From a virus: 50,035 nucleotides of DNA. The stretch lies in the IMG/VR virus record IMGVR_UViG_3300022542_000276; one strand, 5' to 3'. This document shows positions 142 through 49,638 of this stretch, one piece after another. Position 1 is the first letter of the stretch. Every line of letters begins with the position of its first letter. Position numbers and translations under genes: made by a program. Below the pieces are notes generated by a model, which saw nothing but the letters and a program-made list of their open reading frames with translations, ran no database searches and had not been told where the DNA came from.

Positions 142-452
142 TCTCTGAACTTGCCTCTAAGGCCTTATCAATCTATGAAGAAATCTTCGACTCTGAAACA
201 GTCTCCTATAACCTAAAAAAAGACGCTGCAGACACTATCTTAATGGACCTAGGTGGTCACCGCACTCCTACCAAAATAGACACTCGCTCCCTCCACTTAA
301 CTGCTACCCCTGATGAAATATCTGAATTTAAACGCTTAGGCATCAAAGCTGCTAAAGAATCTGGCTTTATAATAGAACTAAAAAACGAATCTACACCTAA
401 GCCTACACCTACACCTACGCCAACCAGATCGTTTAATAACCGAACGGACTAA
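1..452 (+). CDS. Putative small terminase / HTH DNA-binding protein, 3' part. The ORF wraps the junction and its 5' part is at 49747..50035. The collapsed ORF is 199 aa.
   Basis: Frame 3 is open from nt 3 to TAA 450-452 and is in phase with ATG 49747 once the 141-nt duplication is collapsed. It contains the HTH-like segment 'QSDIATLLSITPATVSNTLN' and heads the packaging arm. Track ORF 243..452 is only its last Met-initiated piece. Confidence 0.5.
   Translation, partial: KQSDIATLLSITPATVSNTLNSELGSHKLSQLRLARDKDYINVSKKVSELASKALSIYEEIFDSETVSYNLKKDAADTILMDLGGHRTPTKIDTRSLHLTATPDEISEFKRLGIKAAKESGFIIELKNESTPKPTPTPTPTRSFNNRTD
426..450. repeat. 25-nt dyad element, copy 1 (degenerate right arm)
   Basis: agatcgtttaataaccgaacggact. 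Lies inside the 3' end of the terS-like ORF and is read as RSFNNRTD*. Confidence 0.7.
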
Positions 453-454
453 CC

Positions 455-883
455 ATGAAATCTTACTTCGCTTCAGCCCTAATAACTGAACAGCTTCTAG
501 ACAACAACTTTGTCAGACTAACCAAATCCTTCAAATACTACAGCAACTATCTATCCAAAACCATAATCATCCCTAGAAACTTCATCTGTGACCTTGAATC
601 TGTTCCCTTACTAAAATCCTCATCTAACCACGCTGGTCTAATCCATGACTACTTCTGTCGAAAAGACTCTATCCCTATCCTGACCAAACAGCAAGCTGCT
701 ACCCTCTACTTCGAAGCCCAATCCCTTCGAGACTCTCTAACTTCCAAAACCTTCCTATCCAAACTACTCAAACTACTAACTCGCCACTTTAAAACCCTAA
801 CTGTCCGTATATTTCCCAACTACTTCCACAAACACTATGTCCTATCCACCTTAAACGAACTCAAAGGACTTAAAGGAAACTAG
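455..883 (+). CDS. Hypothetical protein, DUF1353-like
   Basis: 142-aa ORF starting 3 nt after the upstream stop. 'FICDLESVP...HDYFC' resembles the DUF1353 signature as I remember it; this is not verified. Confidence 0.4.
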   Translation: MKSYFASALITEQLLDNNFVRLTKSFKYYSNYLSKTIIIPRNFICDLESVPLLKSSSNHAGLIHDYFCRKDSIPILTKQQAATLYFEAQSLRDSLTSKTFLSKLLKLLTRHFKTLTVRIFPNYFHKHYVLSTLNELKGLKGN

Positions 884-1888
884 ATGAAAAAATTATCAAT
901 AATTATTTCCAATCGCAACGACTTAACAATGCTCTCTGTAACCGTTCGCTCTTGCATAGAAGCCTTACGCCCTATAGGCCTCCCTAACTGTGAAATAGTA
1001 ATAGTTGACAACTCTGACGAATCCATCTACAAACTCCTACCTTCCATCCTCCCAACCGGCTACATCTCCGAAGGTCTAATTCAAATCTATCGCCAACCTA
1101 CCCCTTGCCTCTTCACCGCACGAGAACTAGCCGCTTCCAAATCTACTGGCACTTACATCCTTTGCCTAGACTCTCACATGCTAATCGGTCACAACATGCT
1201 AGTTGACTTACTCTCCTTTATGAATCGCCACTCTGATGACCCTACCTTAGGCTTTGCCCATGCTCCAATAAACTGGGCTCACCAGCATGACCGTGCTTCC
1301 AAACACGACCGAGATATGTCCCTTAACGAATTAGGTTCTTGGAACTTAAAATATAATAAAGAACGTACAATTACTTGGAAAGGTATGCCCTGGATCTGCC
1401 GACGTACTTGGTTCCTAGACAAACTCAATGGCCTAAACGGCTATGGCGCCCTCTCACAGCACCAAATCTCTTGGGGTGGTGGCGACCTTCACATCGGCGT
1501 CAAGCCTTGGCTACTTGGCTTTAAAAACTGGGCAGTACCTACCAACCCTGGAATCCACATAGGTCCTTTCCCAAAAATAGATACTGGCAAAAACCCTAAC
1601 GAAACCACTTGTGGCCCAGACAAATACCGTCTTTACTCTACTTCCGGAAACGGCCCTCATGCCATAGGCTTCCTAATCTCATGTTACGTATTAGGTGGCA
1701 TTCCTATGATGGAACGAAATAAAGCTGCTATAACTTCCCGCTTTGGTCGTTTCATAGATGTAGGCAAAAACTGGGATGCTGCCATAGCTTACGGCTCCGA
1801 TGAAAAAGCCTGGCTTGACTCCCGCAAAGTAATGTCTTTCGAACAACTACTAACCACTAAACCTTGGGAATCTACCAATGCCAATTAG
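884..1888 (+). CDS. Glycosyltransferase, GT-A fold (family 2-like) with a DxH motif
   Basis: 'LSIIISNRND' and 'EIVIVDNSDES' form a GT2-type N-terminus. 'CLDSHML' is a DxH metal motif like GT27 polypeptide GalNAc-transferases. Start abuts the upstream stop (TAGATG). Confidence 0.7.
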   Translation: MKKLSIIISNRNDLTMLSVTVRSCIEALRPIGLPNCEIVIVDNSDESIYKLLPSILPTGYISEGLIQIYRQPTPCLFTARELAASKSTGTYILCLDSHMLIGHNMLVDLLSFMNRHSDDPTLGFAHAPINWAHQHDRASKHDRDMSLNELGSWNLKYNKERTITWKGMPWICRRTWFLDKLNGLNGYGALSQHQISWGGGDLHIGVKPWLLGFKNWAVPTNPGIHIGPFPKIDTGKNPNETTCGPDKYRLYSTSGNGPHAIGFLISCYVLGGIPMMERNKAAITSRFGRFIDVGKNWDAAIAYGSDEKAWLDSRKVMSFEQLLTTKPWESTNAN

Positions 1889-2447
1889 TCATCAAAAAAA
1901 TATCTTCAGCGTACTCAACCTAGTAGATGATATACAAAAGCGTCTCGGTGTATCTTCTATCCTTGATATAGGCGCTGGATTCGGCAAATACGGACTCCTT
2001 CTTCGTGAACGTCTAGACATACGCTTCCTCCGCTATAACAAACCATCCTGGATAACTCGCATAGATGCTGTAGAACCCTACTCTGATTACATAACCCCTG
2101 TTCACAAATACATCTATGACAACATCTACTTAGACAAAATAGAAAACTTAGCATCTACCCTCCCTAACTACGACATAATCTTAATGATAGATTGCTTAGA
2201 ACACCTTGAAAAGTCTACTGGAGAAAAACTTCTAACAGAATTAGACTCTAAAACTAACAAACTACTAATCTTGTCCTTTCCTAATATTTACCAAGCAAGG
2301 GCCGGCGCCGACTGGATCAATGACTTAGAGCGCCATCGCTGTCTATGGACTAAAGAAGACCTAACATTCATACTAGGTCCTGTAAACCATCACAAGTTTA
2401 CAATCTATGTAAAAGATAAAACTAATCAAACTAACCAGATCGTTTAA
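1878..2447 (+). CDS. Class I SAM-dependent methyltransferase
   Basis: Motif I 'ILDIGAGFGKYG' and 'ILMIDCLEHL'. It overlaps the glycosyltransferase gene by 11 nt, and its stop lies inside a dyad copy (protein ends ...NQIV*). Confidence 0.7.
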   Translation: MPISHQKNIFSVLNLVDDIQKRLGVSSILDIGAGFGKYGLLLRERLDIRFLRYNKPSWITRIDAVEPYSDYITPVHKYIYDNIYLDKIENLASTLPNYDIILMIDCLEHLEKSTGEKLLTELDSKTNKLLILSFPNIYQARAGADWINDLERHRCLWTKEDLTFILGPVNHHKFTIYVKDKTNQTNQIV

Positions 2448-2461
2448 TTATGGAACAATCT
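2437..2461. repeat. 25-nt dyad element, copy 2 (degenerate right arm)
   Basis: agatcgtttaattatggaacaatct. Overlaps the methyltransferase stop and ends 2 nt before the TerL ATG. Confidence 0.65.
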
Positions 2462-2462
2462 A

Positions 2463-4028
2463 ATGGATAAAACAACTAAAGAAATACACTCTCTATGTTC
2501 TGTCTCCACTTGTATAACTGCCCAAACTTTCTTCCCTAACCGTTTCTACCTACCTTTCGCTAAAAAAGTCCATGGAGAGATCTTCAAACTAATAGACGGC
2601 CCTGATAACAAAATCGCTATCGCTGCCCCTCGTGGTTGGGGAAAAACTTCCATTGTAGCCCTAGCCTTAATGGCTCGCTACATCATGTACTCTCTAACCG
2701 GCTTCATCTGCTACATAAACAAATCTCATGACGCTGCCTCCCTTCAAACCGAAAATCTCCGCCGTGAACTCGTAACCAATCGAATGATAAAGCACTTCTT
2801 TGGCAACTTCAAACATCACAATGCTAACAACAATGAGTTTGATGAAGTATTCTCAAAAAAGGCCTGGGTTGCTTATAACACCCTAGTCTGGCCACGCGGT
2901 GCTGGCCAACAAGTCCGGGGTGTACTATTCAAAGATGACCGACCTGGACTTATAATAATAGATGACCTTGAAGACCCTGAACACATCGAAAATGAAGAGT
3001 ATCGTCGCAAACAGTTCGAATGGCTCTACGCTGACGTAATCAAGGCTGTCCCACGAATAGGCAAAGGTGCAAAAGACTACAAAATAGTCTACATCGACAC
3101 CCTCAAGCATGAAGACGCACTAATCCAAAAACTTCTTGACTCTCCCGAATGGAAATCTATACGCCTGGAAGCCTGTGACGACAACTTCAAATCCTCAGCT
3201 CCCGAATTCATGTCTGATGAAGACATCCAACGTGAGTGGCAGGAACATCTAGACTCTGGTCAATCTGATGTATTCTTTCGTGAACTCCGAAACCTACCTA
3301 TCTCGACCAAAGACTCTGCTTTCCGTAAAGAGTACTTCCATTACTACAACGTAGAACATTCAACTCGAGATGAACAAGACTTGGCTATCACCGATCCTGA
3401 AATACAGCAAGACCAATCTATCGAAACAGTAATCTTACTTGATCCTGCTAAAACAGTCAAAATCCATTCAGCTGAGTCGGCCATCCTTGGAATCGGCATA
3501 GACTTAAAAAATGCTAGACTCTACCTTCGAGATGGCATCTCAGAAAAAATGTACCCAGATGAAATCTACGATGCACTATTCAGTATGGCACTTAACCTTA
3601 ATGCCAAAGTAATAGGCATTGAAGAAACTGGCTTAAACGAATTCATAAAGCAACCTATAAAAAACGAAATGTTCAAACGAGCAGCAGGCAACAAAGGTGC
3701 ATTCTACGAACTCATCTGGCTCAAAGCCCGAGGCGGCATGAATGGTGAGAAGGGCAAATCCTTACGAATAAAAGAACTTGTACCATATTATCGACAAGGC
3801 TACATCTATCACAACAAGCGCTGTGCTATAATCTCTAAGCTTGAACAACAACTCCTCATGTTTCCTCGTTCGCGCCTATGGGACTTAATGGACTGCTTAG
3901 CCTACATCATCGAGATGCTCGAACTAGGTGAACGCTACTTTAGTCCACAAGATAAAATCGAAGATATCGAAGCTGAATATGCTGAACTAGAATATGAAAA
4001 ATCTTTAGAAGGGTACGAGATCATTTAA
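2463..4028 (+). CDS. terL: Terminase large subunit
   Basis: Walker A 'AAPRGWGKTS', Walker B 'GLIIIDDLED', a C-terminal nuclease-like half, 521 aa. Stop lies inside a dyad copy (...EII*). Confidence 0.85.
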   Translation: MDKTTKEIHSLCSVSTCITAQTFFPNRFYLPFAKKVHGEIFKLIDGPDNKIAIAAPRGWGKTSIVALALMARYIMYSLTGFICYINKSHDAASLQTENLRRELVTNRMIKHFFGNFKHHNANNNEFDEVFSKKAWVAYNTLVWPRGAGQQVRGVLFKDDRPGLIIIDDLEDPEHIENEEYRRKQFEWLYADVIKAVPRIGKGAKDYKIVYIDTLKHEDALIQKLLDSPEWKSIRLEACDDNFKSSAPEFMSDEDIQREWQEHLDSGQSDVFFRELRNLPISTKDSAFRKEYFHYYNVEHSTRDEQDLAITDPEIQQDQSIETVILLDPAKTVKIHSAESAILGIGIDLKNARLYLRDGISEKMYPDEIYDALFSMALNLNAKVIGIEETGLNEFIKQPIKNEMFKRAAGNKGAFYELIWLKARGGMNGEKGKSLRIKELVPYYRQGYIYHNKRCAIISKLEQQLLMFPRSRLWDLMDCLAYIIEMLELGERYFSPQDKIEDIEAEYAELEYEKSLEGYEII

Positions 4029-4042
4029 TAATTAAACGATCT
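4018..4042. repeat. 25-nt dyad element, copy 3
   Basis: agatcatttaataattaaacgatct. Overlaps the TerL stop and lies 20 nt upstream of ATG 4063. Confidence 0.9.
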
Positions 4043-6825: not shown

Positions 6826-6850
6826 ATATCGTTTAATAATTAAACGAACT
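6826..6850. repeat. 25-nt dyad element, copy 4
   Basis: atatcgtttaataattaaacgaact, followed directly by 'ggagaaacca' and ATG 6861 (portal). Confidence 0.9.
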
Positions 6851-11484: not shown

Positions 11485-11509
11485 AGACCGTTTAATTAAT
11501 AAACAATCT
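11485..11509. repeat. 25-nt dyad element, copy 5
   Basis: agaccgtttaattaataaacaatct. Lies 21 nt upstream of the capsid ATG, before 'aggaga'. Confidence 0.8.
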
Positions 11510-12845: not shown

Positions 12846-12877
12846 GATCTGGACTAAACTATGTGTTAGTCCAGATC
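12846..12877 (+). terminator. Perfect 12-bp stem hairpin after the capsid gene (terminator/stabiliser-like)
   Basis: gatctggactaa / actatgtg loop / ttagtccagatc. No strong U-tract follows. The right arm shares AGATC with dyad copy 6. Confidence 0.5.
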
Positions 12878-12897
12878 ATTTAATAACCAAACGAACT
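12873..12897. repeat. 25-nt dyad element, copy 6
   Basis: agatcatttaataaccaaacgaact, followed by 'attggagac' and ATG 12912. Confidence 0.75.
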
Positions 12898-13453: not shown

Positions 13454-13478
13454 AGTTCATTCAATAATTAAACGATCT
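13454..13478. repeat. 25-nt dyad element, copy 7 (degenerate left arm)
   Basis: agttcattcaataattaaacgatct, followed by 'atggaggtagtaga' and ATG 13493. Confidence 0.75.
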
Positions 13479-15927: not shown

Positions 15928-16572
15928 ATGGCTAAGAATGAAACTTTTTCAGTATTAACTGGTGGTGGAGCAGATTCTTTAGATGGGATAACAACACCTT
16001 CAAATAATGACTTTGCTTTTGGTATAGTAAGTGATCTACATCATGCTTATATTTTTGATAGCTCTGAAGTAGGTGGAGAGAACTCACCTTATCAGATAAA
16101 GGCTAATGACGCAACTACAGGTAGTTGGATGCTTGTAGGATTTAAAGGGGCTTTTAGTCATGTGTTCGCGACCAGTGATGCTGGACAAAGTATTACACAA
16201 AATACAGATACTGACCTTATTTTTGAAGATGAAGTTCATGATCTTTTAAGTGAATATATTCATACAACTGGTATATTTACAGCTAAATATACTGGATACT
16301 ATCAAGTAAATGTCGGCATTTTATTTGATACTGCTGCATGGACAGCTGGAAATAATATAGCACTTTCTTTAGGTGGGACAAATACTTATAAATTACAGAG
16401 ATTTCCAATACCACTTACAACAAGTCAATATTATAGTATGCGTGGAAGTTTGTGCATCCCTTTGTCAGTAGGTAGTACGGTTAAAGCTATTGTTAATCAT
16501 AATGGTTCTGGAGCAAGGACTCTTATTGCATCGTCAGTATGGAATCATATTTCAATAGATCGTATAGCATAG
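15928..16572 (+). CDS. Putative receptor-binding protein with a C1q/TNF-like jelly-roll
   Basis: 'GIFTAKYTGYYQVNVGI' ... 'LCIPLSVGSTVKAIV' resembles C1q globular-domain strands. Lies immediately upstream of the large fibre gene. Confidence 0.4.
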   Translation: MAKNETFSVLTGGGADSLDGITTPSNNDFAFGIVSDLHHAYIFDSSEVGGENSPYQIKANDATTGSWMLVGFKGAFSHVFATSDAGQSITQNTDTDLIFEDEVHDLLSEYIHTTGIFTAKYTGYYQVNVGILFDTAAWTAGNNIALSLGGTNTYKLQRFPIPLTTSQYYSMRGSLCIPLSVGSTVKAIVNHNGSGARTLIASSVWNHISIDRIA

Positions 16573-16580
16573 GTTAAACA

Positions 16581-19500
16581 ATGTCAAGACTCTGGACAGA
16601 TAATTCAACAGATCGAGTATGGACAGATAATTCTACTGATAGGCTGTGGAATGATAGTACATTTACTACTGCTAGTCCTACTACATTGGCTACTACAGTT
16701 GCTCCAACTACTATAGTTACAACTGTAGCACCTACTACTTTACCTCCTACTACTATATTACCACCTACGACTTCTCCACCTACTACATTAGTTCCTACCA
16801 CTTTAGGCCCAACCACAGTAGGTCCTTCAACTGCCGTACCAACAGTAGGTCCGACTACTATAGCACCTGAACCTAAGCATGGTTATGCACTGGTAAGGAA
16901 TGGTTGGTGTGAAGATGGATTTAAGAGATGTAAGTGGTCTAGTCTTGGAAGGACTATGGCAAGTCAGAGTAGTAATGCTATAGATGAAAGAGGTAGAATG
17001 TTTACTTGGGGACAAAATTATTATTCCCAAAGTGGTCAAGGATTAGGTATTCCAGCTGGAGAATTATCACAGATAGAATATGCTACACAGATTGGTGCAG
17101 AGAGTAATTGGGTTAAGGCCGAATCAGGAGAGTTGTCAACTATAGCAATTAATAAAGATGGTGAACTATGGGGATGGGGTAATGCAGATAATGACTGTGA
17201 GCCTTTTGGTCTACCACCTTTTTCTGGGGATAATGGTGATGCTAGATTTTACTACCCAAGAATGGTAACTCCAGGATATGTATGGAAAGACTTCACCCAT
17301 GACTATTATCATACTATGGCTATAGATGAAAATGATAAGTTATGGATCTGGGGAATGAACTATGATGAATGTTTTGGGATGAGAGGAGTTCCTATACCTT
17401 ATAATAATGGTTCAGCTACACCGATCCAGCATACATATCTAACTGATGATGTAAAGTTAATAGATTGTGAATTGTTAGGTAATGTAGTTGTAACAACTAA
17501 TGATAAAGTATATGTATTCGGTGAAGGATTTTATACCTTCTTTGGATTTCCTGATCTAAAAGAGCCAAGAGAAATAACTGGATTGATTATTCCTTTAGGT
17601 GAAACTATAACTGAAATCACCTCATCTAATATGGGAATAACTGCATTATTGTCTAATGGTGAACTATGGGCAGCTGGACAGAGTTATATCTTTGGTGATA
17701 ACCGTACTGCATACCCTGCTGGATCAGACACTTTTGTTAAGATCCCTTTCTTTATTGGAAAAGAAGTTGTAAAAGTAAGGAATACATCACTTGGTGCTAC
17801 AAGTATGTTTGTGATAGATGCTAATGGAAACATTTGGGGATGGAGTTATACTACTCAATTCTATCCTGGAAATAGTTTACCAATTCCAGCTTCATATAAT
17901 GAGTTTATGCTAGTCGCTTCAGAATATGAAGGGCAATATAAATGGATAGACATGATAAACAATGAGCATCAACAATGTTATCAAACAATAGATAAAAATG
18001 GATATCTTTATACATGGGGACGACAGTGGTGGGGACCACACTTAGCATTAGGTGCTGCATATGATCAATCTGCAGCAGACGACGATCCTAATATTACAGA
18101 TATAGTAAAGGCAAGACTATATGCAGGTAAAGCTGCAAGAGCACTTGACTACAAACAAGAATTTACTACTTTAAATACTATACCAGTCGGTGAATCGAAC
18201 TACATCCAACCACTTGACCAAGATAAACGACATAAACCCTGTGGACACTGGCATAAAAGACTGTTTGAAGAGGAAGTTGAATATCCTGTAAACTGCTGGA
18301 TGCCTAGTCTAGCAGTCCATAATGAGTTAATTTTCTTCGTTGCATCTGGCAAACATCAACAACTTCATATAGCTGACACCGGCAGTGAAGTGTTATTCTT
18401 TACTTATAATATAGATACTGGAGTATGGGAGTGGTTACTGTACGAACAAAACATAAACGCATCTAACTTTCCAGGCGGTGCAGCTATCGACATAGACATC
18501 TATGCATTCTTTAACTATAAAGCAGATATATCTGGTGATAGACTAAATGAAATATTTACAAATCCAGCTATGGGAATCTGGGTACTACACAATGATATAT
18601 TAAAGTATACCGAGTGGACAGATAACATACCAATGTCTGGACAAAATAAACTAGGTGTGCATTCTACTGGATTAGTCGCTTTGGCTTACACTAATACAGC
18701 AGGACAAGTTTTAATAAAGGTATCAACCGACTTCGGTGTTACATTTAGTAATGTAAAAACACTGCCAACACTATCTGCAAGAAAAGACTATAGTTTAATA
18801 GTAGACCCTAATGGATATATTTATCTAGCACACCAGATATCAACCACATCTATAAAGATTGAAAGGTCAATAAATAATGGAGTTAGCTGGACTACACAGA
18901 TAGTTTCTAACTATATAATGCCTAACATAACCAAAGTCAAATTAATCTCTGACAATGCTATGCTATTCTTAATCTGTGCTAGTGAGACGGCTACAGCTAT
19001 AGAACGCAGTGAGAATGATGGAGTTAGTTGGACAACTTCGGGAGCCGGAGAACCTGGAAGTTCTATAGTCGGCTCAGTCTGTAATATATCTGACGGAGAT
19101 GATAACTATGCTATAGTATTAGTAGATGGTGATACTATTGAATATAAAACTTTTCCATCAGGTGAACAATATACAGTCTACGGAACTATGTATAACTATA
19201 TCTGGGACTTTAACTATGGAGATTATACTTGGTTAGAAAGAGATATCGCGCATCTTAGTGTGGATAGTGAAAATATGGATATAAGTGTGCAAGAATCAAA
19301 TTCTACACTAGAAGGCTACAATGGAAGATTTGCTTATTCATCTTACGGATTTTTCTCTGCACCTGATAATCATGTAGCGATAGTAATATCAAGTAATAAA
19401 GGAGCTAATTGGCAGGTAATATCTGTCCCACTTGGCTACAATAACGAGAATGAAATTTCAGATTTTAAAGGCTGTCCTTTATTCTGTATCAAAGATATTC

Positions 19501-19604
19501 CATACCTTAATCACATATGGAGTTTTGAAAAAAGTGATTGGAATGAAAAGTTTGTAGAGCAAAAAGATAAATACGTTAAAGTTAACAAATGTGAATGTAA
19601 ATAG
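16581..19604 (+). CDS. Tail fibre/spike: WTDNSTDR repeats, PT linker, RCC1-like propeller, BNR/Asp-box propeller
   Basis: RCC1-like 'G(E/K)LW(G/I)WG' blades occur at least 6 times (MFTWGQN, ELWGWGN, KLWIWGM, ELWAAGQ, NIWGWSY, YLYTWGR). Asp-box 'S-x-(D/N)-x-G-x-(S/T)-W' occurs 4 times (STDFGVTF, SINNGVSW, SENDGVSW, SSNKGANW). Confidence 0.7.
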   Translation: MSRLWTDNSTDRVWTDNSTDRLWNDSTFTTASPTTLATTVAPTTIVTTVAPTTLPPTTILPPTTSPPTTLVPTTLGPTTVGPSTAVPTVGPTTIAPEPKHGYALVRNGWCEDGFKRCKWSSLGRTMASQSSNAIDERGRMFTWGQNYYSQSGQGLGIPAGELSQIEYATQIGAESNWVKAESGELSTIAINKDGELWGWGNADNDCEPFGLPPFSGDNGDARFYYPRMVTPGYVWKDFTHDYYHTMAIDENDKLWIWGMNYDECFGMRGVPIPYNNGSATPIQHTYLTDDVKLIDCELLGNVVVTTNDKVYVFGEGFYTFFGFPDLKEPREITGLIIPLGETITEITSSNMGITALLSNGELWAAGQSYIFGDNRTAYPAGSDTFVKIPFFIGKEVVKVRNTSLGATSMFVIDANGNIWGWSYTTQFYPGNSLPIPASYNEFMLVASEYEGQYKWIDMINNEHQQCYQTIDKNGYLYTWGRQWWGPHLALGAAYDQSAADDDPNITDIVKARLYAGKAARALDYKQEFTTLNTIPVGESNYIQPLDQDKRHKPCGHWHKRLFEEEVEYPVNCWMPSLAVHNELIFFVASGKHQQLHIADTGSEVLFFTYNIDTGVWEWLLYEQNINASNFPGGAAIDIDIYAFFNYKADISGDRLNEIFTNPAMGIWVLHNDILKYTEWTDNIPMSGQNKLGVHSTGLVALAYTNTAGQVLIKVSTDFGVTFSNVKTLPTLSARKDYSLIVDPNGYIYLAHQISTTSIKIERSINNGVSWTTQIVSNYIMPNITKVKLISDNAMLFLICASETATAIERSENDGVSWTTSGAGEPGSSIVGSVCNISDGDDNYAIVLVDGDTIEYKTFPSGEQYTVYGTMYNYIWDFNYGDYTWLERDIAHLSVDSENMDISVQESNSTLEGYNGRFAYSSYGFFSAPDNHVAIVISSNKGANWQVISVPLGYNNENEISDFKGCPLFCIKDIPYLNHIWSFEKSDWNEKFVEQKDKYVKVNKCECK
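16665..16874 (+). repeat. Coding PTT-type Pro/Thr repeat array (70 aa)
   Basis: Residues 29-98 of the fibre: 'TTASPTTLATTVAPTTIVTTVAPTTLPPTT...GPTTIAPEP'. Confidence 0.9.
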
Positions 19605-19626
19605 ATCGTTTAATTATTAAACAATA
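19602..19626. repeat. 25-nt dyad element, copy 8 (degenerate right arm)
   Basis: agatcgtttaattattaaacaatat. Begins in the fibre stop codon and is followed by 'ggagacaaact' and ATG 19639. Confidence 0.8.
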
Positions 19627-19638
19627 TGGAGACAAACT

Positions 19639-22696: not shown

Positions 22697-22721
22697 AGAC
22701 CATTTAATAATTAAACGATCT
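22697..22721. repeat. 25-nt dyad element, copy 9
   Basis: agaccatttaataattaaacgatct, followed by 'taaacaggagaatttaaa' and ATG 22740. Confidence 0.9.
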
Positions 22722-29137: not shown

Positions 29138-29162
29138 AGATCGTTAAATTTCCAAACGGTCT
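29138..29162. repeat. 25-nt dyad element, copy 13, at the convergence point of the two arms
   Basis: agatcgttaaatttccaaacggtct. It fills the 29-nt gap between stop 29136 (+) and stop 29166 (-). Confidence 0.8.
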
Positions 29163-33428: not shown

Positions 33429-33453
33429 ATATTGTTTAATAATTAAACGATCT
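33429..33453. repeat. 25-nt dyad element, copy 14
   Basis: atattgtttaataattaaacgatct. Lies directly upstream (minus sense) of the SD and ATG 33415. Confidence 0.8.
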
Positions 33454-33489: not shown

Positions 33490-33514
33490 AGATCGTTTGG
33501 GAATTAAACGATCT
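33490..33514. repeat. 25-nt dyad element, copy 15
   Basis: agatcgtttgggaattaaacgatct. Overlaps the stop of the ParB/Srx-MTase gene (protein ends ...QQIV*). Confidence 0.8.
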
Positions 33515-34823
33515 GTTGTGAATGCAATTTTATTAAAAAACTATCTCTGTAGGCTTTAGACAACTCAAATCCTAGCGGACTCATACCAAGTTGGTCGGCT
33601 GCTAGAATACCATTACCTGATCCCAGGAAAGGAATCAAAACACGCGAGCCAGGAAATGCAAAGGTATTATAGATCTCCTTCATCAACTCGATGGGACGTT
33701 CAGTAGGATGAGTTTTCTTCTGTGGTGGGACTGGAGGGTAATCAAAGATGTTTCTCCTACCTGGCTTATTAAGTGCCGGACGGCCCTTCCAAGCATAGAA
33801 AAACATCTCATAAGAATTTGCTAGATGTATTTCAGGTCGTTTAGATTGGCCATATCCTTTTGTCCACACTCCGCACATACGAGTAGTGTTAAATCCAGCA
33901 TGGGTTAATTCCTTATATACAACTTCAATCCATGGCTGGGGAGCAAACCAGCATATTAGCCAAGAATGCTGGGCCATTACTCGATAGCATTCTTGAAATA
34001 GTAAGGACAAAAATTCTATATATTTATCTGCATCAATTTCATTGTAAGAGTCGGAGGAATATATAGACTCACCATCTGTCTTTTTAGCTTGCTGGAGCCT
34101 TATAGCATACGGAGGGTCTATTTCCACAAGATGGTAAACGGAATCAGGAATCTTCTTTACACCTTCAAAGAAGTCATTTAGAACAAAGCAGTTAGATAAC
34201 TTAGTAAAAGAATTACTAGTAGTTTCTAACTGAATTTTCTGTGCAATAACTTCCTTAACAACAAGCTCATCCATCTTCTTAATTACAGTCGAAGCATCCT
34301 TTTGTGTCTTACATTTGTCAAATAGTTCCGGAAATGCTTCACGAGCTTCAGCACGTTTAATAGCGGTAGAAACAGATGCTTTGGAAACTCCGATTAGTTT
34401 GCCAGTATCATCAGTTCCCCAGCCAACTGCATCTGGGCCAGGTGCCTTTGTGCCATGGATAGATTGTTGTAGTTCATGTATTTCCCTTGTTAAGTTATCA
34501 AACTCCCAAAATTCCATATCCTTTCTGTGAAAGTTTTCAGACTTTTCTATTATTTTTATTTCTAAGTCTGATAAACTAGATGGAAATATCCTTACTGGAA
34601 TTATCTCAACTTTGTTTTTCAACAATGTTCGTAATCTGCGTTCACCGGCTAGTAATAGATACTTATTATCATCTATTTCTTTGACAGCTAATGGAGCAAT
34701 CAGTCCACTATTCTTCATTGACTCTTCAAGACTAATCAAGTCTCCCATTTCTACCCTTGTTCTATCTCCAATGTCTATGTTACTTATATCTACCATTGCA
34801 ACTTTTCCTACTTCTATAGACAT
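33504..34823 (-). CDS. ParB/Srx N-terminal domain fused to a DNA methyltransferase (DPPY, beta-class N6A/N4C type)
   Basis: 'LLAGERRLRT' is the ParB GxRR box, 'EIDPPY' is catalytic motif IV, and 'THPTERPIEL' plus 'VLIPFLGSGN' is the SAM-binding motif. Confidence 0.8.
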   Translation of the reverse strand: MSIEVGKVAMVDISNIDIGDRTRVEMGDLISLEESMKNSGLIAPLAVKEIDDNKYLLLAGERRLRTLLKNKVEIIPVRIFPSSLSDLEIKIIEKSENFHRKDMEFWEFDNLTREIHELQQSIHGTKAPGPDAVGWGTDDTGKLIGVSKASVSTAIKRAEAREAFPELFDKCKTQKDASTVIKKMDELVVKEVIAQKIQLETTSNSFTKLSNCFVLNDFFEGVKKIPDSVYHLVEIDPPYAIRLQQAKKTDGESIYSSDSYNEIDADKYIEFLSLLFQECYRVMAQHSWLICWFAPQPWIEVVYKELTHAGFNTTRMCGVWTKGYGQSKRPEIHLANSYEMFFYAWKGRPALNKPGRRNIFDYPPVPPQKKTHPTERPIELMKEIYNTFAFPGSRVLIPFLGSGNGILAADQLGMSPLGFELSKAYRDSFLIKLHSQQIV

Positions 34824-35288: not shown

Positions 35289-35313
35289 AGATCGTTTAAC
35301 AATTAAATGAACT
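35289..35313. repeat. 25-nt dyad element, copy 16
   Basis: agatcgtttaacaattaaatgaact. Overlaps the stop of the SQD1-like gene. Confidence 0.8.
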
Positions 35314-36982: not shown

Positions 36983-37007
36983 AGATCGTTTAATAATTAA
37001 ATGGACT
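36983..37007. repeat. 25-nt dyad element, copy 17
   Basis: agatcgtttaataattaaatggact. Directly abuts the 5' end of the tRNA-Leu-like element. Confidence 0.85.
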
Positions 37008-38432: not shown

Positions 38433-38457
38433 AGATCGTTTGATTATCAAACGGTCT
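38433..38457. repeat. 25-nt dyad element, copy 18 (paired inner substitutions)
   Basis: agatcgtttgattatcaaacggtct. Both arms carry TTTGAT/ATCAAA instead of TTTAAT/ATTAAA. Confidence 0.85.
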
Positions 38458-38765: not shown

Positions 38766-38790
38766 AGTTTGTTTATTAATTAAACGATCT
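38766..38790. repeat. 25-nt dyad element, copy 19 (degenerate left arm)
   Basis: agtttgtttattaattaaacgatct. Confidence 0.7.
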
Positions 38791-41451: not shown

Positions 41452-41829
41452 TTAATCCTTTCCAGGTTTAGACTTTACAGCATCCAAGATGCCAGGCGGA
41501 GCTATGGTATTATCTCGGATTAAGTCCTTCGATCGTTTATCACCTGAGTTAGGGGTTAGTAAAGGATTGATAGTAGGTTTTTTATTCAGTTCGTTTGATT
41601 TTTGAACGAACTTGAAATCGTTAAATAGTTTATCAAGATCACTTTTGGGCTTGCCAGGATCGGGACGAGTAAGAAGTTCATTATTTATATCTTTGAATGG
41701 ATAATCAGGATGTTCATCAGGGCAGGAGTGAGGGGCTATGACAAGGATTACCTTTTGTTGTTTAGGTAAGGCTTTGTGCAGGATGGTTAGTTCAGTTCCG
41801 CACTCAGCGCAGAAGATTTGACGGCTCAT
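41452..41829 (-). CDS. Hypothetical protein with an N-terminal Zn-ribbon-like motif
   Basis: 'CAECGTEL...HSCPDEH'. 125 aa. Confidence 0.55.
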   Translation of the reverse strand: MSRQIFCAECGTELTILHKALPKQQKVILVIAPHSCPDEHPDYPFKDINNELLTRPDPGKPKSDLDKLFNDFKFVQKSNELNKKPTINPLLTPNSGDKRSKDLIRDNTIAPPGILDAVKSKPGKD

Positions 41830-42515: not shown

Positions 42516-42540
42516 AGTCTGTTAAATAATTAAACGATCT
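42516..42540. repeat. 25-nt dyad element, copy 20 (degenerate left arm)
   Basis: agtctgttaaataattaaacgatct. A 6-bp hairpin ttcctg-tat-caggaa lies at 42490-42504 nearby. Confidence 0.75.
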
Positions 42541-44007: not shown

Positions 44008-44032
44008 AGATCGTTTAATAATCAAACGGACT
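44008..44032. repeat. 25-nt dyad element, copy 21
   Basis: agatcgtttaataatcaaacggact. Lies 3 nt from the 3' end of the tRNA-like minihelix. Confidence 0.8.
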
Positions 44033-44095: not shown

Positions 44096-44106
44096 GTCCT
44101 AACACA

Positions 44107-45545: not shown

Positions 45546-45570
45546 AGACCGTTTATTAATTAAACGATCT
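45546..45570. repeat. 25-nt dyad element, copy 22
   Basis: agaccgtttattaattaaacgatct. Overlaps the 3' end of 45556..45861 (protein ends ...PRSFN*). Confidence 0.85.
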
Positions 45571-45861
45571 TGGATTAAGAATTAAGGTAACAACTACTTT
45601 CATCCGGCAGGAGTGGTCACCTTTTATTTGTCCCTCTTTATTACCAAACAGTTTATCAAACAGTTCATTAAAACACTTTTCACACAAACCTGAGATAGCA
45701 AACTCACGCTTGCCCCCTTCTGAATAACAGTTAGCAAGTGCAGATTGCTTACACTTAATGCAAAGACCTTTATCCCAATTAGACTGAGAATCCTTGCCGT
45801 AAAGTTTGTCTTGTAAAGACTTTTGAAACTTCTGTAACTTGTCCATCTGTAACTCATCCAT
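45556..45861 (-). CDS. Zn-finger protein
   Basis: 'CIKCKQ...CEKC' forms a CxxC pair. 101 aa. Preferred over the overlapping out-of-frame ORF 45624..45857. Confidence 0.55.
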   Translation of the reverse strand: MDELQMDKLQKFQKSLQDKLYGKDSQSNWDKGLCIKCKQSALANCYSEGGKREFAISGLCEKCFNELFDKLFGNKEGQIKGDHSCRMKVVVTLILNPRSFN

Positions 45862-46379: not shown

Positions 46380-46404
46380 AGATTGTTTATTAATTAAACG
46401 AACT
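46380..46404. repeat. 25-nt dyad element, copy 23
   Basis: agattgtttattaattaaacgaact. Confidence 0.75.
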
Positions 46405-47837: not shown

Positions 47838-47862
47838 AGTCTGTTTAATAATTAAACGATCT
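47838..47862. repeat. 25-nt dyad element, copy 24
   Basis: agtctgtttaataattaaacgatct. Lies between the candidate leftward promoter and the SD of 47373..47822. Confidence 0.8.
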
Positions 47863-48636: not shown

Positions 48637-48661
48637 AGTTCGTTAAATTACCAAACGATCT
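48637..48661. repeat. 25-nt dyad element, copy 25
   Basis: agttcgttaaattaccaaacgatct. Confidence 0.7.
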
Positions 48662-48780
48662 AATTTCCAGTCTACCACTACTCACTTTTAGTATTTACCT
48701 TTACCTCTAGCTTACACTCCAGCAATGAGTTAATAAGTTACCCGTCTAGAAGCATAAACTATTAGGTATATCTTAGTCTA

Positions 48781-49219: not shown

Positions 49220-49247
49220 ATTATATCATACTAGTCACCCATGTCAA
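49220..49247 (-). promoter_or_regulatory. Near-consensus sigma70-type promoter (TTGACA-16-TATAAT), leftward early promoter candidate
   Basis: The minus strand reads aaTTGACAtgggtgactagtatgaTATAATgtaa. The -35 is at 49247-49242 and the -10 at 49225-49220. Confidence 0.65.
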
Positions 49248-49378
49248 TTAATATATTAAATGTCGATGGGGAAGATCTGGGCCGTAGTTCGCCGGGTTAG
49301 CCTCCAAACATTTTGTCTGAAAAATAAAACATTGTACTAAAATGTACGGTGCGCCCAGCCACGTCCAGCCCAGATGCG

Positions 49379-49434
49379 CACTACGCACGAAGCACGAGGC
49401 ACGATGCACGAAGCACGATGCACCAGGCACGAGG
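49379..49434. repeat. Tandem heptamer array, CACGANG-type x8, in a GC-rich island
   Basis: cactacg cacgaag cacgagg cacgatg cacgaag cacgatg caccagg cacgagg. Confidence 0.9.
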
Positions 49435-49448
49435 TGAGATGAAAGGTT

Positions 49449-49473
49449 AGATCGTTTAATTATTGAATGATCT
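49449..49473. repeat. 25-nt dyad element, copy 26
   Basis: agatcgtttaattattgaatgatct. Lies 14 nt after the heptamer array. Confidence 0.8.
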
Positions 49474-49613
49474 TGCGATTCCACTAAGTGCCTACGAACT
49501 TCAGTTCGTGTCTTTATCCTCCAAGGAAATTTTAATCTTAACATAGTAAATGATAATAGTAGTACTTACAATAATGTAAGTAATAGCCGGGCACAACTTC
49601 ACTTCGTTACGAA

Positions 49614-49638
49614 AGATCGTTTATTGATTAAACAAACT
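49614..49638. repeat. 25-nt dyad element, copy 27
   Basis: agatcgtttattgattaaacaaact. Lies 55 nt upstream of the rightward promoter -35. Confidence 0.75.

What the first reader, a model, noticed from the sequence alone, without database searches (positions are those of the whole stretch)
426..49638. A 25-nt dyad-symmetric element in 27 copies punctuates gene-module boundaries on both transcription arms
The consensus AGATCGTTTAAT-A-ATTAAACGATCT is a perfect 12+1+12 palindrome with a GATC in each arm. I located 27 copies by eye, and a weaker candidate sits at 16557-16582.

Twenty-two or more copies lie in the short spacers between genes. They typically sit 5-25 nt upstream of a GGAG-type SD (6826, 12873, 13454, 19602, 22697, 33429, 47838). 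They often overlap the preceding stop codon. As a result, unrelated proteins end in the same element-encoded peptide: QIV* in 1878..2447 and 33504..34823, EII* in TerL, and RSFN in the terS-like ORF and 45556..45861.

The copies divide the genome into roughly 20 cassettes, and one copy fills the 29-nt gap where the two arms converge. Many copies keep one near-perfect arm while the other is degenerate (for example 13454, 19602, 38766, 42516). This looks more like two inverted protein half-sites than an obligate RNA hairpin. However, copy 38433 carries paired TTTGAT/ATCAAA changes plus a G.U-compatible outer change, which would also preserve a hairpin.

No U-tract follows any copy, so these are not canonical intrinsic terminators.

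Candidate roles, all inference:
- An operator for a dimeric phage DNA-binding protein, such as the HTH protein at the junction or the ParB/Srx-MTase.
- An mRNA processing or stability hairpin, analogous to T7 intercistronic RNase III sites.
- Recombination module-boundary cassettes, analogous to T4-type PeSLs.
Basis: partly seen in the sequence, partly recalled or inferred. Interest (0 to 1): 0.8.

Follow-up and report, generated by a model that had tools for sequence, protein, structure and literature searches.

The report
Dispersed parS-like sites for a ParB-methyltransferase
A 25-base mirror-symmetric DNA word occurs 28 times around this roughly 50-kb phage genome, and it is most likely the docking site of the phage's own ParB-type DNA-binding protein fused to a DNA methyltransferase, which gives a testable handle on a widespread but uncharacterised class of phage proteins.

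Summary
There are 28 copies of AGATCGTTTAAT-N-ATTAAACGATCT with at most 5 mismatches, none with 6-7, and 0 expected by chance.

The window is a complete, circularly closed phage genome. It belongs to a large uncultivated clade with more than 45 genome groups in IMG/VR. Every relative keeps the same 25-nt frame (AG...CT) at the same gene junctions. The inner core differs between genomes, and both arms always change together.

Within copies there is no compensatory pairing. The symmetry runs through positions that cannot pair in a hairpin. mRNA-strand hairpins are weak and appear to be selected against. This is therefore a double-stranded DNA dyad site, not an RNA hairpin.

I scanned 911 sequence windows from 16 conserved proteins for co-variation with the element core. 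The top four all fall on the helix-turn-helix of the ParB_N-HTH-N6/N4-methyltransferase fusion (window 33504-34823, minus strand). The best value was partial r = 0.53, rank 1 of 911, with 0 of 3000 permutations as high. Its N-terminal 210 residues model as a ParB/Noc/KorB NTD plus DNA-binding domain.

Best reading: these are dispersed parS-like sites of a ParB-methyltransferase. What binding achieves is inferred only. It could be clamp-loading and self-targeted methylation, or KorB-like silencing.

The parts
426..450 (.). element copy, 5 mismatches; read through by the TerS C-terminus (..RSFNNRTD*), upstream of 455-883
2437..2461 (.). element copy, 3 mismatches; supplies the stop of 1878-2447 (QIV*), upstream of TerL
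4018..4042 (.). element copy, 1 mismatch; supplies the TerL stop (EII*). An element after TerL is found in 12 relatives
6826..6850 (.). element copy, 2 mismatches; abuts the GGAG of the portal gene
11485..11509 (.). element copy, 3 mismatches; 22 nt upstream of the MCP ATG. The position is conserved in 10 relatives of several core types
12873..12897 (.). element copy, 4 mismatches; directly follows the GC-rich hairpin after the MCP stop
13454..13478 (.). element copy, 3 mismatches; 2 nt before the SD of 13493-14146
19603..19627 (.). element copy, 2 mismatches; overlaps the TAG stop of 16581-19604 and abuts a GGAG
22697..22721 (.). element copy, 2 mismatches; between 21793-22695 and 22740-23126
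25146..25170 (.). in-ORF copy, 3 mismatches, in the polyvalent-protein gene; read in the stop-free frame as DRLKIERP
25476..25500 (.). in-ORF copy, 3 mismatches, in the polyvalent-protein gene; read as DRLKIERP
26310..26334 (.). in-ORF copy, 5 mismatches (DRLEIKRT), at the boundary between the variable N-half and the conserved C-half of the polyvalent protein
29138..29162 (.). element copy, 5 mismatches, filling the 29-nt gap where the two arms converge. The position is conserved in 22 relatives
33429..33453 (.). element copy, 2 mismatches; upstream of 33206-33415 and PolA. A PolA/MTase junction copy is conserved in 20 relatives
33490..33514 (.). element copy, 3 mismatches; supplies the stop codon of the ParB-MTase gene itself (QIV*)
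35289..35313 (.). element copy, 3 mismatches; 2 nt before the SD of 35036-35275
36983..37007 (.). element copy, 3 mismatches; beside the SSB-like gene 37013-37429. A copy adjacent to this gene is found in about 22 relatives
38433..38457 (.). element copy, 3 mismatches
38766..38790 (.). element copy, 3 mismatches
41588..41612 (.). in-ORF copy, 5 mismatches, in 41452-41829. The position is conserved in 13 relatives, tracks each genome's core type, and carries stop-avoiding changes
42516..42540 (.). element copy, 4 mismatches
44008..44032 (.). element copy, 3 mismatches; between a tRNA-like fragment and the ATG at 43983
45546..45570 (.). element copy, 2 mismatches; supplies the stop of 45556-45861 (..RSFN*)
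46380..46404 (.). element copy, 3 mismatches, in the early region
47838..47862 (.). element copy, 3 mismatches; 3 nt before the SD of 47373-47822
48637..48661 (.). element copy, 4 mismatches; upstream of the likely true ATG (about 48617) of 48206-48685
49449..49473 (.). element copy, 2 mismatches, in the divergent control region next to the 7-nt tandem array. It lies upstream of both predicted promoters
49614..49638 (.). element copy, 3 mismatches; about 110 nt upstream of the TerS ATG and 56 nt upstream of the -35 of the + strand promoter-like site. An equivalent copy is present in 7 of 8 relatives examined
16557..16583 (.). possible decayed copy (AGATCGT...TTAAACAA) with a longer scrambled centre
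33504..34823 (-). proposed reader: the ParB_N (GERRLRT box II, ENFHRKD box III) - HTH - N6_N4 MTase (DPPY) fusion, 439 aa; a core gene of the clade
34335..34415 (-). coding segment for HTH residues 137-163 (DDTGKLI-GVS-KASVSTAIKRAEAREA). This is the protein stretch whose divergence tracks the element core

Best explanation
The 25-bp elements are double-stranded, two-fold symmetric binding sites. They are parS-like sites for a dimer of the phage's own ParB_N-HTH-DNA methyltransferase fusion protein (33504-34823, minus strand). Each HTH reads one 12-bp half-site. The residues at the start of the recognition helix (S147-K148 in this phage) read the genome-specific core at positions 5-9.

Shown here:
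- The sites are a DNA-level dyad.
- They are kept at the same junctions across a large clade while their core changes.
- The ParB-MTase HTH is the one conserved protein segment that co-varies with that core.

Inferred from what is established for ParB, Noc and KorB (PMC12704722): the intact GERRxR box suggests nucleotide-dependent clamp loading at the sites and sliding away from them. About 28 sites, one per roughly 1.8 kb and including copies forced into long ORFs, would then tether the fused N6-adenine-type MTase to phage DNA and spread it over the whole genome. That would give self-addressed methylation, for example to evade restriction or to mark self. A KorB-like alternative is that the bound or sliding protein silences or insulates transcription units.

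The palindrome necessarily makes a hairpin in the mRNA next to ribosome-binding sites. That hairpin appears to be selected against, which would explain the strand asymmetry of the degenerate positions.
For: (1) dsDNA dyad, not a hairpin.
- Per-genome consensus is palindromic in 45 genome groups. 9 of 12 symmetric position pairs change on both sides between genomes. This includes pair 12-14, which cannot pair across a 1-nt loop.
- Within copies there is no excess of compensated changes at 3-23, 4-22 or 5-21. At 5-21 there is a deficit: 10 observed against 17.6 expected, P = 0.005. Mismatch counts in the two arms are negatively correlated (r = -0.30), as expected for two half-sites sharing an affinity budget.

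(2) Conserved placement with a changing core.
- Convergent junction: 22 contigs. PolA/MTase junction: 20. Upstream of MCP: 10. After TerL: 12.
- One in-ORF site is kept in 13 contigs with stop-avoiding substitutions.
- A copy in the divergent, probably untranscribed region upstream of TerS is present in 7 of 8 relatives.

(3) Reader.
- Of 911 sliding 24-aa windows in 16 conserved protein families, the top four by partial correlation with element-core distance (controlling for the rest of the same protein) are all ParB-MTase residues 130-165. The maximum is r = 0.526 at residues 138-161. The background has mean 0.033, sd 0.127 and 99th percentile 0.333. 0 of 3000 label permutations reached the observed value. 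The profile is about 0 in the CTPase and MTase domains.
- Residue signatures. CG-core genomes have G(G)VSK. All 9 AATTA/GATTA-core genomes have G(V/I)T(D/N/G)AS. The window and genome group G15 differ only by SK to TD in an otherwise identical recognition helix. The rarer cores (TCCAAA, CCATTGAA, CGGTTAAT, CCCATTAAT, AAATTTAA) each have their own signature.

(4) Fold.
- AF2 model of residues 1-230: mean pLDDT 78.9, helices 137-144 and 148-163.
- Foldseek top hits are Noc (7nfu; 7ol9 with its DNA site), ParB-parS (6t1f) and KorB (8qa9/8qa8), over 195-231 columns, E = 1e-8.
- Sequence hits to Noc and ParB cover AGERRxR and ENxxR.
- Pfam ParB_N plus N6_N4_Mtase; NCBIfam noc/parB_part.

(5) Outgroup. 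Desulfofustis phage LS06-2018-MD01 has the same fusion gene with a different recognition helix (KSSISRDLKLA). It carries 9 copies of a different palindrome (CTATGTCCCAAnTTGGGACATAG) at analogous places, including the junction and upstream of the portal gene.

(6) Literature. ParB-N6N4 MTase fusions are frequent in phages and uncharacterised (PMC12704722). The idea that ParB homologs direct DNA-modifying enzymes to specific loci is described as unconfirmed (PMC13229309).
Against: - No binding, methylation or transcript data exist; everything is comparative.
- The genome groups are not phylogenetically independent. The control used was divergence of the rest of the protein plus a proteome-wide window background, not a tree-aware model.
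- No single HTH residue perfectly predicts every core. Thr occurs at position 148 with both CG and CA cores.
- The primase-helicase also shows some type association: residues 180-211 give r = 0.36-0.38, and whole-protein correlation is 0.45.
- Canonical ParB needs a C-terminal dimerisation domain, which the MTase replaces here.
- The 25-bp site is longer than a 16-bp parS, and the invariant outer AG/CT is unexplained.
- The sliding and self-methylation step is pure inference. ParB-fold proteins can bind ATP or GTP, or not act as switches at all (PMC12704722).
- The tight placement just upstream of SD sequences could still mean a role in gene expression.
Confidence: 0.6

Rival explanations
1. 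The elements are operators or 'stoperators' of a different, still unidentified dimeric phage regulator. Candidates are the small protein 35036-35275 or the N-terminal domain of 46490-47392, both of which look like ribbon-helix-helix proteins by pattern only. Bound at gene boundaries, at the late promoter region and at the convergence point, this protein would block or insulate transcription in either direction.
For: - The sites have the DNA-level dyad properties listed above.
- They sit in short intergenic spaces and near a promoter, like L5 operators and stoperators (PMC9283540).
- The element is the only feature in the convergent gap in 22 contigs, and no intrinsic terminators are enriched anywhere.
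- An element lies directly upstream of 35036-35275.
- Outside two early promoters, sigma-70 promoters are at chance level.
Against: - The putative beta-strand residues of both RHH-like families do not track element type.
- RHH status is unverified: the AF2 model has pLDDT 61.7, and PDB and Pfam profile searches were negative.
- No window of these proteins approaches the ParB-MTase HTH in the coevolution scan.
- No integrase or CI-like repressor was detected in the ORFs scanned.
- Three copies inside one 5.2-kb ORF are hard to explain as gene-boundary stops.
Confidence: 0.15
2. The element acts as RNA. It would be an intercistronic hairpin for processing, 3'/5' end protection, termination or translational control of the polycistronic arm transcripts.
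For: - Copies lie in transcribed intercistronic spacers 0-10 nt from SD sequences.
- Some copies fold well, for example 45546 at -10.9 and 25146 at -9.7 kcal/mol.
- The junction copy is the only candidate 3'-end structure for both arms.
Against: - Mean mRNA-strand MFE is -4.4 kcal/mol in the window and -3.4 over 233 copies. 10 of 28 window copies are at or above -2. A perfect copy would give -11, and the true hairpin after MCP gives -19.5.
- Mismatches on the mRNA strand are A.C rather than G.U, 168 to 68.
- Compensated pairs are depleted, not enriched.
- The symmetry extends to positions 12/14, which cannot pair.
- A separate strong hairpin is still needed after MCP.
- Copies exist upstream of both divergent promoters.
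- There is no Rfam match.
- The stem is too short for an RNase III substrate.
Confidence: 0.07
3. The element works as a single-stranded DNA hairpin on the template strand. It could be a priming or helicase-loading signal for the DUF3987 primase-helicase (29166-30392), or an N4-type hairpin promoter.
For: - The antisense strand folds better than the sense strand: -6.4 against -4.4 kcal/mol, P = 0.004 in the window, and P = 1e-11 over 233 copies.
- The primase-helicase shows the second-best type association.
- Copies are spaced about 1.8 kb apart, and one lies beside an iteron-like array.
Against: - T5 is paired with G21 (an A.C mismatch on the template strand) more often than with A21: 28 against 10. 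That is the opposite of what a template-strand stem would select.
- There is no compensation at pairs 3-5/21-23.
- No phage RNA polymerase was found. The 1742-aa virion protein is a polyvalent protein with LPD domains.
- The asymmetry is explained equally well by selection against the mRNA hairpin.
Confidence: 0.06
4. The elements are homology 'linkers' or small mobile palindromes (MITE- or REP-like). They would spread or homogenise by copying, and would promote cassette exchange between related phages.
For: - Some accessory blocks (455-2447, 4063-6814) are flanked by copies.
- The phage encodes a Sak4-like annealase and an exonuclease.
- Copies within a genome are homogeneous.
Against: - Elements are not enriched at conserved/variable breakpoints (Fisher P = 0.54).
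- Positions are orthologous across genomes with different cores, so the cores changed in place rather than by insertion.
- No transposase or RAYT was detected.
- In-ORF copies are maintained under coding constraint.
Confidence: 0.05

Closest known systems
ParB-parS, Noc-NBS and KorB-OB systems (ParB-CTPase family proteins with palindromic cognate sites)
   Same: - The N-terminal ParB CTPase fold has GERRxR and ENxxR boxes and is followed by an HTH DNA-binding domain.
- The DNA site is dyad-symmetric and presumably read by a dimer.
- Many dispersed copies occur per replicon, as with Noc (about 70 NBS) and KorB (12 OB sites); those counts are from my own knowledge.
- HTH specificity and site co-diversify, as described for ParB/Noc (own knowledge).
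- The half-site (T/C)GTTT...AAAC(G/A) resembles parS TGTTNCAC/GTGAAACA (own knowledge).
   Different: - The C-terminal dimerisation domain is replaced by an N6_N4 DNA methyltransferase.
- No ParA gene and no ParA-binding motif were seen.
- The site is 25 bp with an invariant outer AG/CT rather than 13-16 bp.
- The replicon is an apparently lytic 50-kb phage, so segregation is unlikely to be the purpose.
- The nucleotide bound, and any sliding, are untested.
Phage ParB-CTPase-N6N4 methyltransferase fusions (surveyed in PMC12704722)
   Same: The domain architecture is the same. That survey reports it as frequent in phages and prophages, with unknown function, possibly anti-defence.
   Different: No cognate DNA sites are described for these fusions in the papers I could search. 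Here a candidate site set, and its co-variation with the HTH, is identified.
Cluster A mycobacteriophage operator/stoperator system (L5 gp71; PMC9283540, PMC6550527)
   Same: More than 20 copies of one short site are dispersed over the genome, in short intergenic spaces and at a promoter. The motif differs between related phages together with the protein that reads it.
   Different: Stoperators are 13-bp, asymmetric, oriented with transcription, and bound by a monomeric two-domain immunity repressor of temperate phages. Here the site is a 25-bp palindrome, the candidate reader is a ParB-MTase, and no lysogeny functions were found.
T7 intercistronic RNase III sites and T4 PeSLs
   Same: Repeated elements sit between genes of long transcription units.
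   Different: There is no conserved base pairing, the stems are too short, and there is no promoter inside the element. No association with cassette breakpoints was found.

Membership tests
ParB/Noc/KorB protein-site systems | N-terminal ParB CTPase fold with Box II (GERRxRA) and Box III (ENxxR) | tested here: met
   GERRLRT at residues 60-66 and ENFHRKD at 96-102. Pfam ParB_N scores 38.9 bits against a 26.3 cut-off. phmmer hits to Noc 7ng0 and ParB 6t1f/4umk. Foldseek E = 1e-8 to Noc, ParB and KorB.
ParB/Noc/KorB protein-site systems | Central helix-turn-helix DNA-binding domain following the CTPase fold | tested here: met
   The AF2 model has helices 137-144 and 148-163, with pLDDT 86-93 in that region. 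Foldseek alignments to NTD+DBD crystal structures span 195-231 of 230 columns. A distant homolog, P0119, carries a Sigma70_r4_2-type HTH Pfam hit next to ParB_N.
ParB/Noc/KorB protein-site systems | Palindromic cognate DNA site whose sequence co-varies with the HTH | tested here: met
   Dyad consensus in 45 genome groups. The HTH window ranks 1 of 911 for partial correlation with core distance, r = 0.526, with 0 of 3000 permutations as high. Physical binding was not tested.
ParB/Noc/KorB protein-site systems | C-terminal dimerisation domain; ParA partner or ParA-binding motif (canonical partition ParB) | tested here: not met
   Residues 231-427 are an N6_N4 MTase. No ParA-like hit in any ORF scanned. 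It is therefore not a canonical partition system.
ParB/Noc/KorB protein-site systems | CTP-dependent clamp closure at the site and spreading | not testable with these tools
   This needs nucleotide-binding and crosslinking assays. PMC12704722 shows the fold may bind CTP, ATP or GTP.
Cluster A mycobacteriophage stoperators | Many copies of one short site in short intergenic spaces plus a promoter operator | tested here: met
   28 copies. 14 of the 23 gaps of at least 25 nt are occupied. There are copies in the divergent promoter region.
Cluster A mycobacteriophage stoperators | Asymmetric 13-bp site oriented with transcription, read by a monomeric HTH+stoperator-domain immunity repressor | tested here: not met
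   The site is a 25-bp palindrome. There is only a statistical strand bias in the degenerate positions. No such repressor was detected.
Intrinsic (Rho-independent) terminators | G+C-rich stem-loop followed by a U-tract | tested here: not met
   The core is AT-rich and no T-run follows on the transcribed strand. Terminator-like sites occur at chance level.
RNase III processing hairpins (T7-type) | About 20 bp of conserved, compensated double-stranded RNA | tested here: not met
   At most 12 potential pairs, no compensation, and mean MFE of -3.4 to -4.4 kcal/mol.
T4 PeSLs / modular-exchange linkers | Repeats that bracket exchangeable cassettes (and, for PeSLs, carry an early promoter) | tested here: not met
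   No enrichment at conservation breakpoints. No sigma-70 promoter lies within the element.
N4-type hairpin promoters | Template-strand DNA hairpin read by a phage-encoded virion RNA polymerase | tested here: not met
   No RNAP was found. The large virion protein's homologs carry LPD (polyvalent protein) domains. The pairing statistics argue against a template-strand stem.
REP/MITE-like mobile palindromes | Copies arise by insertion; a cognate transposase is present; insertion sites vary | tested here: not met
   Positions are orthologous across genomes with different cores, and no transposase was detected.

The most novel reading that the evidence does not exclude
The dispersed dyads are an 'address label'. 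A ParB clamp fused to an adenine methyltransferase loads only on DNA that carries the phage's private 25-bp word. It then slides about 1-2 kb in each direction. Because of this, the phage methylates its own genome completely, and not the host chromosome or co-infecting relatives with a different core. Core diversification in step with the HTH would then create mutually exclusive 'self-marking' specificities among co-circulating phages. This would be the first cognate-site system for the widespread phage ParB-MTase fusions, and a direct example of a ParB fold directing a DNA-modifying enzyme to chosen DNA.
Probability: 0.3. Interest if true: 0.88.

Novelty: new variant of a known kind. Interest (0 to 1): 0.76.

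Why it matters
ParB-CTPase folds fused to DNA methyltransferases are among the commonest ParB architectures in phages. Their function and their DNA targets are unknown (PMC12704722). The long-standing idea that ParB homologs steer DNA-modifying enzymes to particular loci is still called unconfirmed (PMC13229309).

This genome and its roughly 45 related genome groups offer a natural experiment:
- a defined 25-bp site;
- about 10-28 copies per genome at conserved positions;
- at least eight core variants;
- a two-residue change in the recognition helix (SK to TD) that accompanies the CG to AA core switch.

That makes binding specificity, clamp loading and cis-restricted methylation directly testable with synthetic DNA and one recombinant protein.

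The work also shows how a DNA-level palindrome can be told apart from an RNA hairpin by sequence statistics alone. Three signatures did this here: symmetry through unpairable central positions, depletion of compensated pairs, and an A.C over G.U bias on the mRNA strand.

Tried and rejected
- Megablast of the whole window against GenBank phages found nothing. tblastn found only a distant named relative.
- Rfam and tRNA scans of the window found nothing.
- Sigma-70 promoter and intrinsic-terminator scans: only two perfect early promoters stand out, and everything else is at chance level. The element is therefore not a host-type promoter or terminator. The TCCAAA-type core has no -10-like hexamer.
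- Virion RNA polymerase idea for the 1742-aa protein: no Pfam, PDB or PHROG support. Its homologs carry LPD polyvalent-protein domains. Rejected.
- RHH candidates 35036-35275 and 46490-47392: their strand residues do not follow element type. PDB and Pfam profile searches were negative. The AF2 model has pLDDT 61.7, too poor to use.
- Whole-protein identity contrasts (same-type against different-type) and per-column mutual information gave only weak, lineage-confounded signals for the primase-helicase, an early coiled-coil/HeH family (window 44739-45128) and others.
- My hand count had suggested that elements mark conserved/variable breakpoints. The formal count did not bear this out.
- The trend of weaker mRNA hairpins nearer the SD is weak (rho = -0.18, P = 0.02) and also appears on the antisense strand. 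I treat it only as mild support for anti-hairpin selection.
- GATC methylation as the point of the element: GATC is absent from most relatives' versions.
- The ligase as an anchor for fetching relatives gave only 10 loci. An alignment of the 44107-44493 family worked better.

Full report
**1. The observation**

Searching AGATCGTTTAATNATTAAACGATCT with up to 3 mismatches gives 21 hits, against 0 in 100 dinucleotide-preserving shuffles. Relaxing the limit to 7 mismatches gives 28 copies with at most 5 mismatches and none with 6 or 7. The family is therefore discrete.

The last 141 nt of the window repeat its first 141 nt, so this is a closed genome of about 49.9 kb. It is a tailed phage. I identified:
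- TerS, running across the window ends;
- TerL at 2463-4028;
- an intein-containing portal at 6861-9878;
- MCP at 11531-12832;
- a 1742-aa polyvalent virion protein;
- on the other strand, a primase-helicase, PolA, a ParB_N-MTase fusion, a Sak4-like annealase, an exonuclease and a ligase.

Genes run 49748->29136 on the plus strand and 49016->29166 on the minus strand, and they converge at 29137-29165.

Copies occupy 14 of the 23 intergenic gaps of at least 25 nt. This includes the whole convergent gap. They often supply the stop codon of the upstream gene and end 0-10 nt before the next SD. Four copies lie inside ORFs.

**2. Relatives**

There is no close GenBank relative. The nearest named phage is Desulfofustis phage LS06-2018-MD01, with MCP at 51% and PolA at 46% identity. 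IMG/VR holds well over a hundred related contigs, with MCP at 72-85% and PolA at 50-78% identity. I grouped these into genome groups.

All of them carry a 25-nt dyad with invariant A1 G2 ... A11 | T15 ... C24 T25. The inner core differs by genome, and always in both arms together. Cores seen were CGTTT (as in the window), CGTTC, CGTTA, CGTAA, (A/G)ATTA, C(A/G)TCC, CCATTG, CGGTT, CCCATT and others.

On 20 per-genome consensus sequences, 9 of 12 symmetric position pairs change on both sides. 94% of cells are complementary, against 72% in shuffles.

Positions are orthologous regardless of core:
- the convergent junction, in 22 contigs;
- the PolA/MTase junction, in 20;
- 22-34 nt upstream of the MCP ATG, in 10;
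- after TerL, in 12;
- an in-ORF site between the 41159 and 42150 orthologues, in 13, each with substitutions that avoid the stop codon the consensus would create.

The cores therefore changed in place. The copies are not independent insertions.

The Desulfofustis phage has 9 copies of an unrelated palindrome, CTATGTCCCAAnTTGGGACATAG. They sit at analogous places, including the junction and upstream of the portal gene.

**3. DNA dyad or hairpin?**

I used 233 copies of the window type, oriented by transcription.

*Compensation.* Pairs 3-23, 4-22 and 5-21 show no excess of compensated double changes. Pair 5-21 shows a deficit: 10 observed against 17.6 expected, P = 0.005. A3.A23 is the commonest combination at that pair. 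Mismatch counts in the two arms are negatively correlated, r = -0.30. This is what two half-sites sharing a binding-energy budget predict. It is the opposite of what a stem predicts.

*Central symmetry.* The symmetry continues to positions 12/14. T-A and A-T covary there (71 observed against 37 expected for A-T), although these bases cannot pair across a 1-nt loop.

*Folding.* Predicted mRNA-strand hairpins are weak. The mean is -4.4 kcal/mol in the window, with 10 of 28 copies at or above -2. A perfect copy gives -11.0, and the genuine covarying hairpin after the MCP stop gives -19.5.

*Strand asymmetry.* There is a robust asymmetry. On the mRNA strand, transitions give A.C rather than G.U (168 to 68). 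G21->A occurs in 44% of copies against 19% for C5->T. As a result the antisense strand folds better, with P = 0.004 in the window and P = 1e-11 over all copies.

A functional template-strand stem would explain this. However, T5 is then found with G21 (28 copies) rather than with A21 (10 copies), which contradicts any stem. My reading, which is an inference, is as follows. For a symmetric dimer, C5->T and G21->A are equivalent, but only the latter breaks the mRNA hairpin. Selection against structure next to ribosome-binding sites therefore biases which arm degenerates.

*Untranscribed copies.* Copies 49449 and 49614 lie between a perfect leftward sigma-70 promoter (49247-49220) and a rightward promoter-like site (49694-49722) just before TerS. 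They are upstream of both. An equivalent copy is present in 7 of 8 relatives examined. Sites in probably untranscribed DNA and sites kept inside ORFs both point to DNA-level function.

**4. Who reads it?**

Annotation of the small ORFs gave no classical repressor. Two families look like ribbon-helix-helix proteins by pattern (35036-35275, and the N-terminus of 46490-47392). Their putative DNA-facing residues do not follow element type, and neither profile searches nor a low-confidence AF2 model support the fold.

Whole-protein contrasts and per-column mutual information were weak and confounded by lineage.

Looking at the ParB_N-MTase fusion in detail showed an HTH at about residues 137-158 (DDTGKLI-GVS-KASVSTAIKRA). 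The start of its recognition helix sorts by core:
- CG cores have G(G)VSK.
- All nine AATTA/GATTA genomes have G(V/I)T(D/N/G)AS.
- Each rarer core has its own signature.
- The window and one AATTA genome differ only by SK to TD in an otherwise identical helix.

I then ran an unbiased scan over 911 sliding 24-residue windows from the 16 protein families present in at least 30 genome groups. For each window I computed the partial correlation between its divergence and the element-core distance, controlling for divergence of the rest of the same protein.

- The four best windows of all 911 are ParB-MTase residues 130-165.
- The maximum is r = 0.526 at residues 138-161.
- The background has mean 0.033, sd 0.127 and 99th percentile 0.333.
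- 0 of 3000 label permutations reach the observed value.
- The profile is flat, about 0, across the CTPase fold and the MTase domain.
- Next best is a stretch of the primase-helicase, at r = 0.36-0.38.

**5. What that protein is**

- It has GERRLRT (Box II), ENFHRKD (Box III) and DPPY.
- Pfam gives ParB_N plus N6_N4_Mtase.
- NCBIfam gives noc and parB_part domain-level hits and adenine-MTase hits.
- phmmer against PDB hits Noc and ParB.
- An AF2 model of residues 1-230 has mean pLDDT 78.9, with helices at 137-144 and 148-163.
- The best Foldseek matches are C-terminally truncated Noc (including the DNA complex 7ol9), Caulobacter ParB-parS (6t1f) and KorB (8qa8/8qa9). They align over 195-231 columns at E = 1e-8. 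So the fold is NTD plus DNA-binding domain.
- The gene is core to the clade, at 54-70% identity.
- It is present in the Desulfofustis phage with a different recognition helix, matching that phage's different palindrome.
- One element supplies the gene's own stop codon, and a second lies 61 nt away.

**6. Mechanism**

Shown:
- The elements are dsDNA dyads under selection at fixed places.
- The ParB-MTase HTH co-diversifies with them.

Inferred from established ParB, Noc and KorB biology (summarised in PMC12704722):
- A dimer binds the dyad.
- Nucleotide binding at the GERRxR pocket may close a clamp that slides off the site.
- With one site per roughly 1.8 kb, including three forced into the 5.2-kb ORF, the tethered MTase could cover the entire phage genome selectively.

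A KorB-like role in transcription is the main alternative for the same protein-site pair. This could be bidirectional insulation at the junction or control of the TerS promoter. I cannot decide between the two roles.

**7. Comparison and novelty**

This works like a ParB/Noc/KorB site system, and the N-terminal 210 residues pass the fold tests. It fails the canonical partition criteria: there is no C-terminal dimerisation domain and no ParA.

Phage ParB-N6N4 MTase fusions are reported as frequent and uncharacterised (PMC12704722). I found no description of their DNA sites. The hypothesis that ParB homologs direct modification enzymes to specific loci is stated to be unconfirmed (PMC13229309).

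Verdict: this is a new variant of a known kind, with a clear experimental path.

**8. Caveats**

- All evidence is comparative.
- Genome groups share ancestry.
- The core 'type' was taken from palindromised consensus sequences.
- Orientation was inferred from ORFs.
- The invariant outer AG/CT and the 25-bp length are unexplained.
- The primase-helicase association is not excluded as a second interaction.

Noticed in passing
window 1-141 and 49895-50035: The last 141 nt repeat the first 141 nt, so the window is a circularly closed or terminally redundant assembly of a genome of about 49.9 kb. TerS (about 215 aa, with an HTH) runs across the ends (about 49748..50035 and 1..452).
   Followed up: yes
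window 49378-49446: About 9 tandem copies of a 7-nt unit (GCACGAN) abut element copy 49449 in the divergent control region. They are iteron-like and may mark a replication origin.
   Followed up: partly
window 49247-49220 (-) and 44592-44564 (-): There are two perfect sigma-70 promoters (TTGACA-16/17-TATAAT with an upstream TG, 12/12), both in element-free gaps of the early region. A weaker + strand site at 49694-49722 lies just before TerS. The host therefore uses sigma-70-type promoters and GGAG SDs.
   Followed up: partly
window 6861-9878: The portal gene is 1005 aa and has a LAGLIDADG_3 hit at residues 633-697. Relatives' portals are about 650 aa. This indicates an intein inserted in the portal protein.
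   Followed up: partly
window 12848-12875; L108 5841-5868; L111 11315; L115 11329; L128 11292; L145 10904; L182 11314: A strong hairpin sits directly after the MCP stop (-19.5 kcal/mol in the window). Its sequence differs but its pairing is kept in every relative, and the 25-nt element follows immediately. It is probably the real MCP 3'-end terminator or stabiliser.
   Followed up: partly
window 44033-44100 (- strand): The sequence looks like a tRNA T-arm plus acceptor end (GGTTCGAATCC...CTCACCA). It lies between gene 44107-44493 and element 44008. ARAGORN and Rfam do not call it.
   Followed up: partly
window 23908-29136: The 1742-aa virion protein has a variable N-half and a conserved C-terminal half of about 900 aa. 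Homologs of that half carry 'large polyvalent protein-associated' domains (PF18857/PF18838), and one homolog carries an N6_N4 MTase domain. The peptide PDRLKIERP occurs twice, each time encoded by an in-frame element copy.
   Followed up: partly
window 37013-37429 (-) and orthologues: This conserved 138-aa protein ends in ...(A/V/E)PF in many orthologues, after an acidic or Gly-rich tail. That resembles the C-terminal tip of bacterial SSBs, so it is probably the phage SSB. The window copy lacks the tail.
   Followed up: no
L186 (Desulfofustis phage LS06-2018-MD01, OP947158) 245, 2247, 7684, 15470, 23055, 29966, 37109, 41277, 42973: There are nine copies of a different 23-nt palindrome, CTATGTCCCAAnTTGGGACATAG (0 expected by chance). 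They lie at gene junctions analogous to those in the window. None is annotated in the record.
   Followed up: yes
window 38431-38459 (+ strand): Copy 38433 is followed by TTTTAGTT on the + strand. It scores as terminator-like, but only for antisense transcription of the minus-strand arm.
   Followed up: no
L227 6185-6685: An HNH_3 homing-endonuclease-like ORF (166 aa) is present in some relatives' early/middle arm and absent from the window.
   Followed up: no
window 29166-30392 (-): The primase-helicase (DUF3987) shows the second-strongest association with element type. Whole-protein distance against core distance gives r = 0.45, and residues 180-211 give partial r = 0.36-0.38. This may reflect lineage or a second interaction with the sites.
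   Followed up: partly
window 44739-45128 (-) and family (e.g. L280 8519-8839): This fast-evolving early protein family has an N-terminal coiled coil and a C-terminal LTxEQ(I/L)xxIAxxLG(I/V) motif that looks HeH/SAP-like. It may be a DNA-binding dimer. Its function is unknown.
   Followed up: partly
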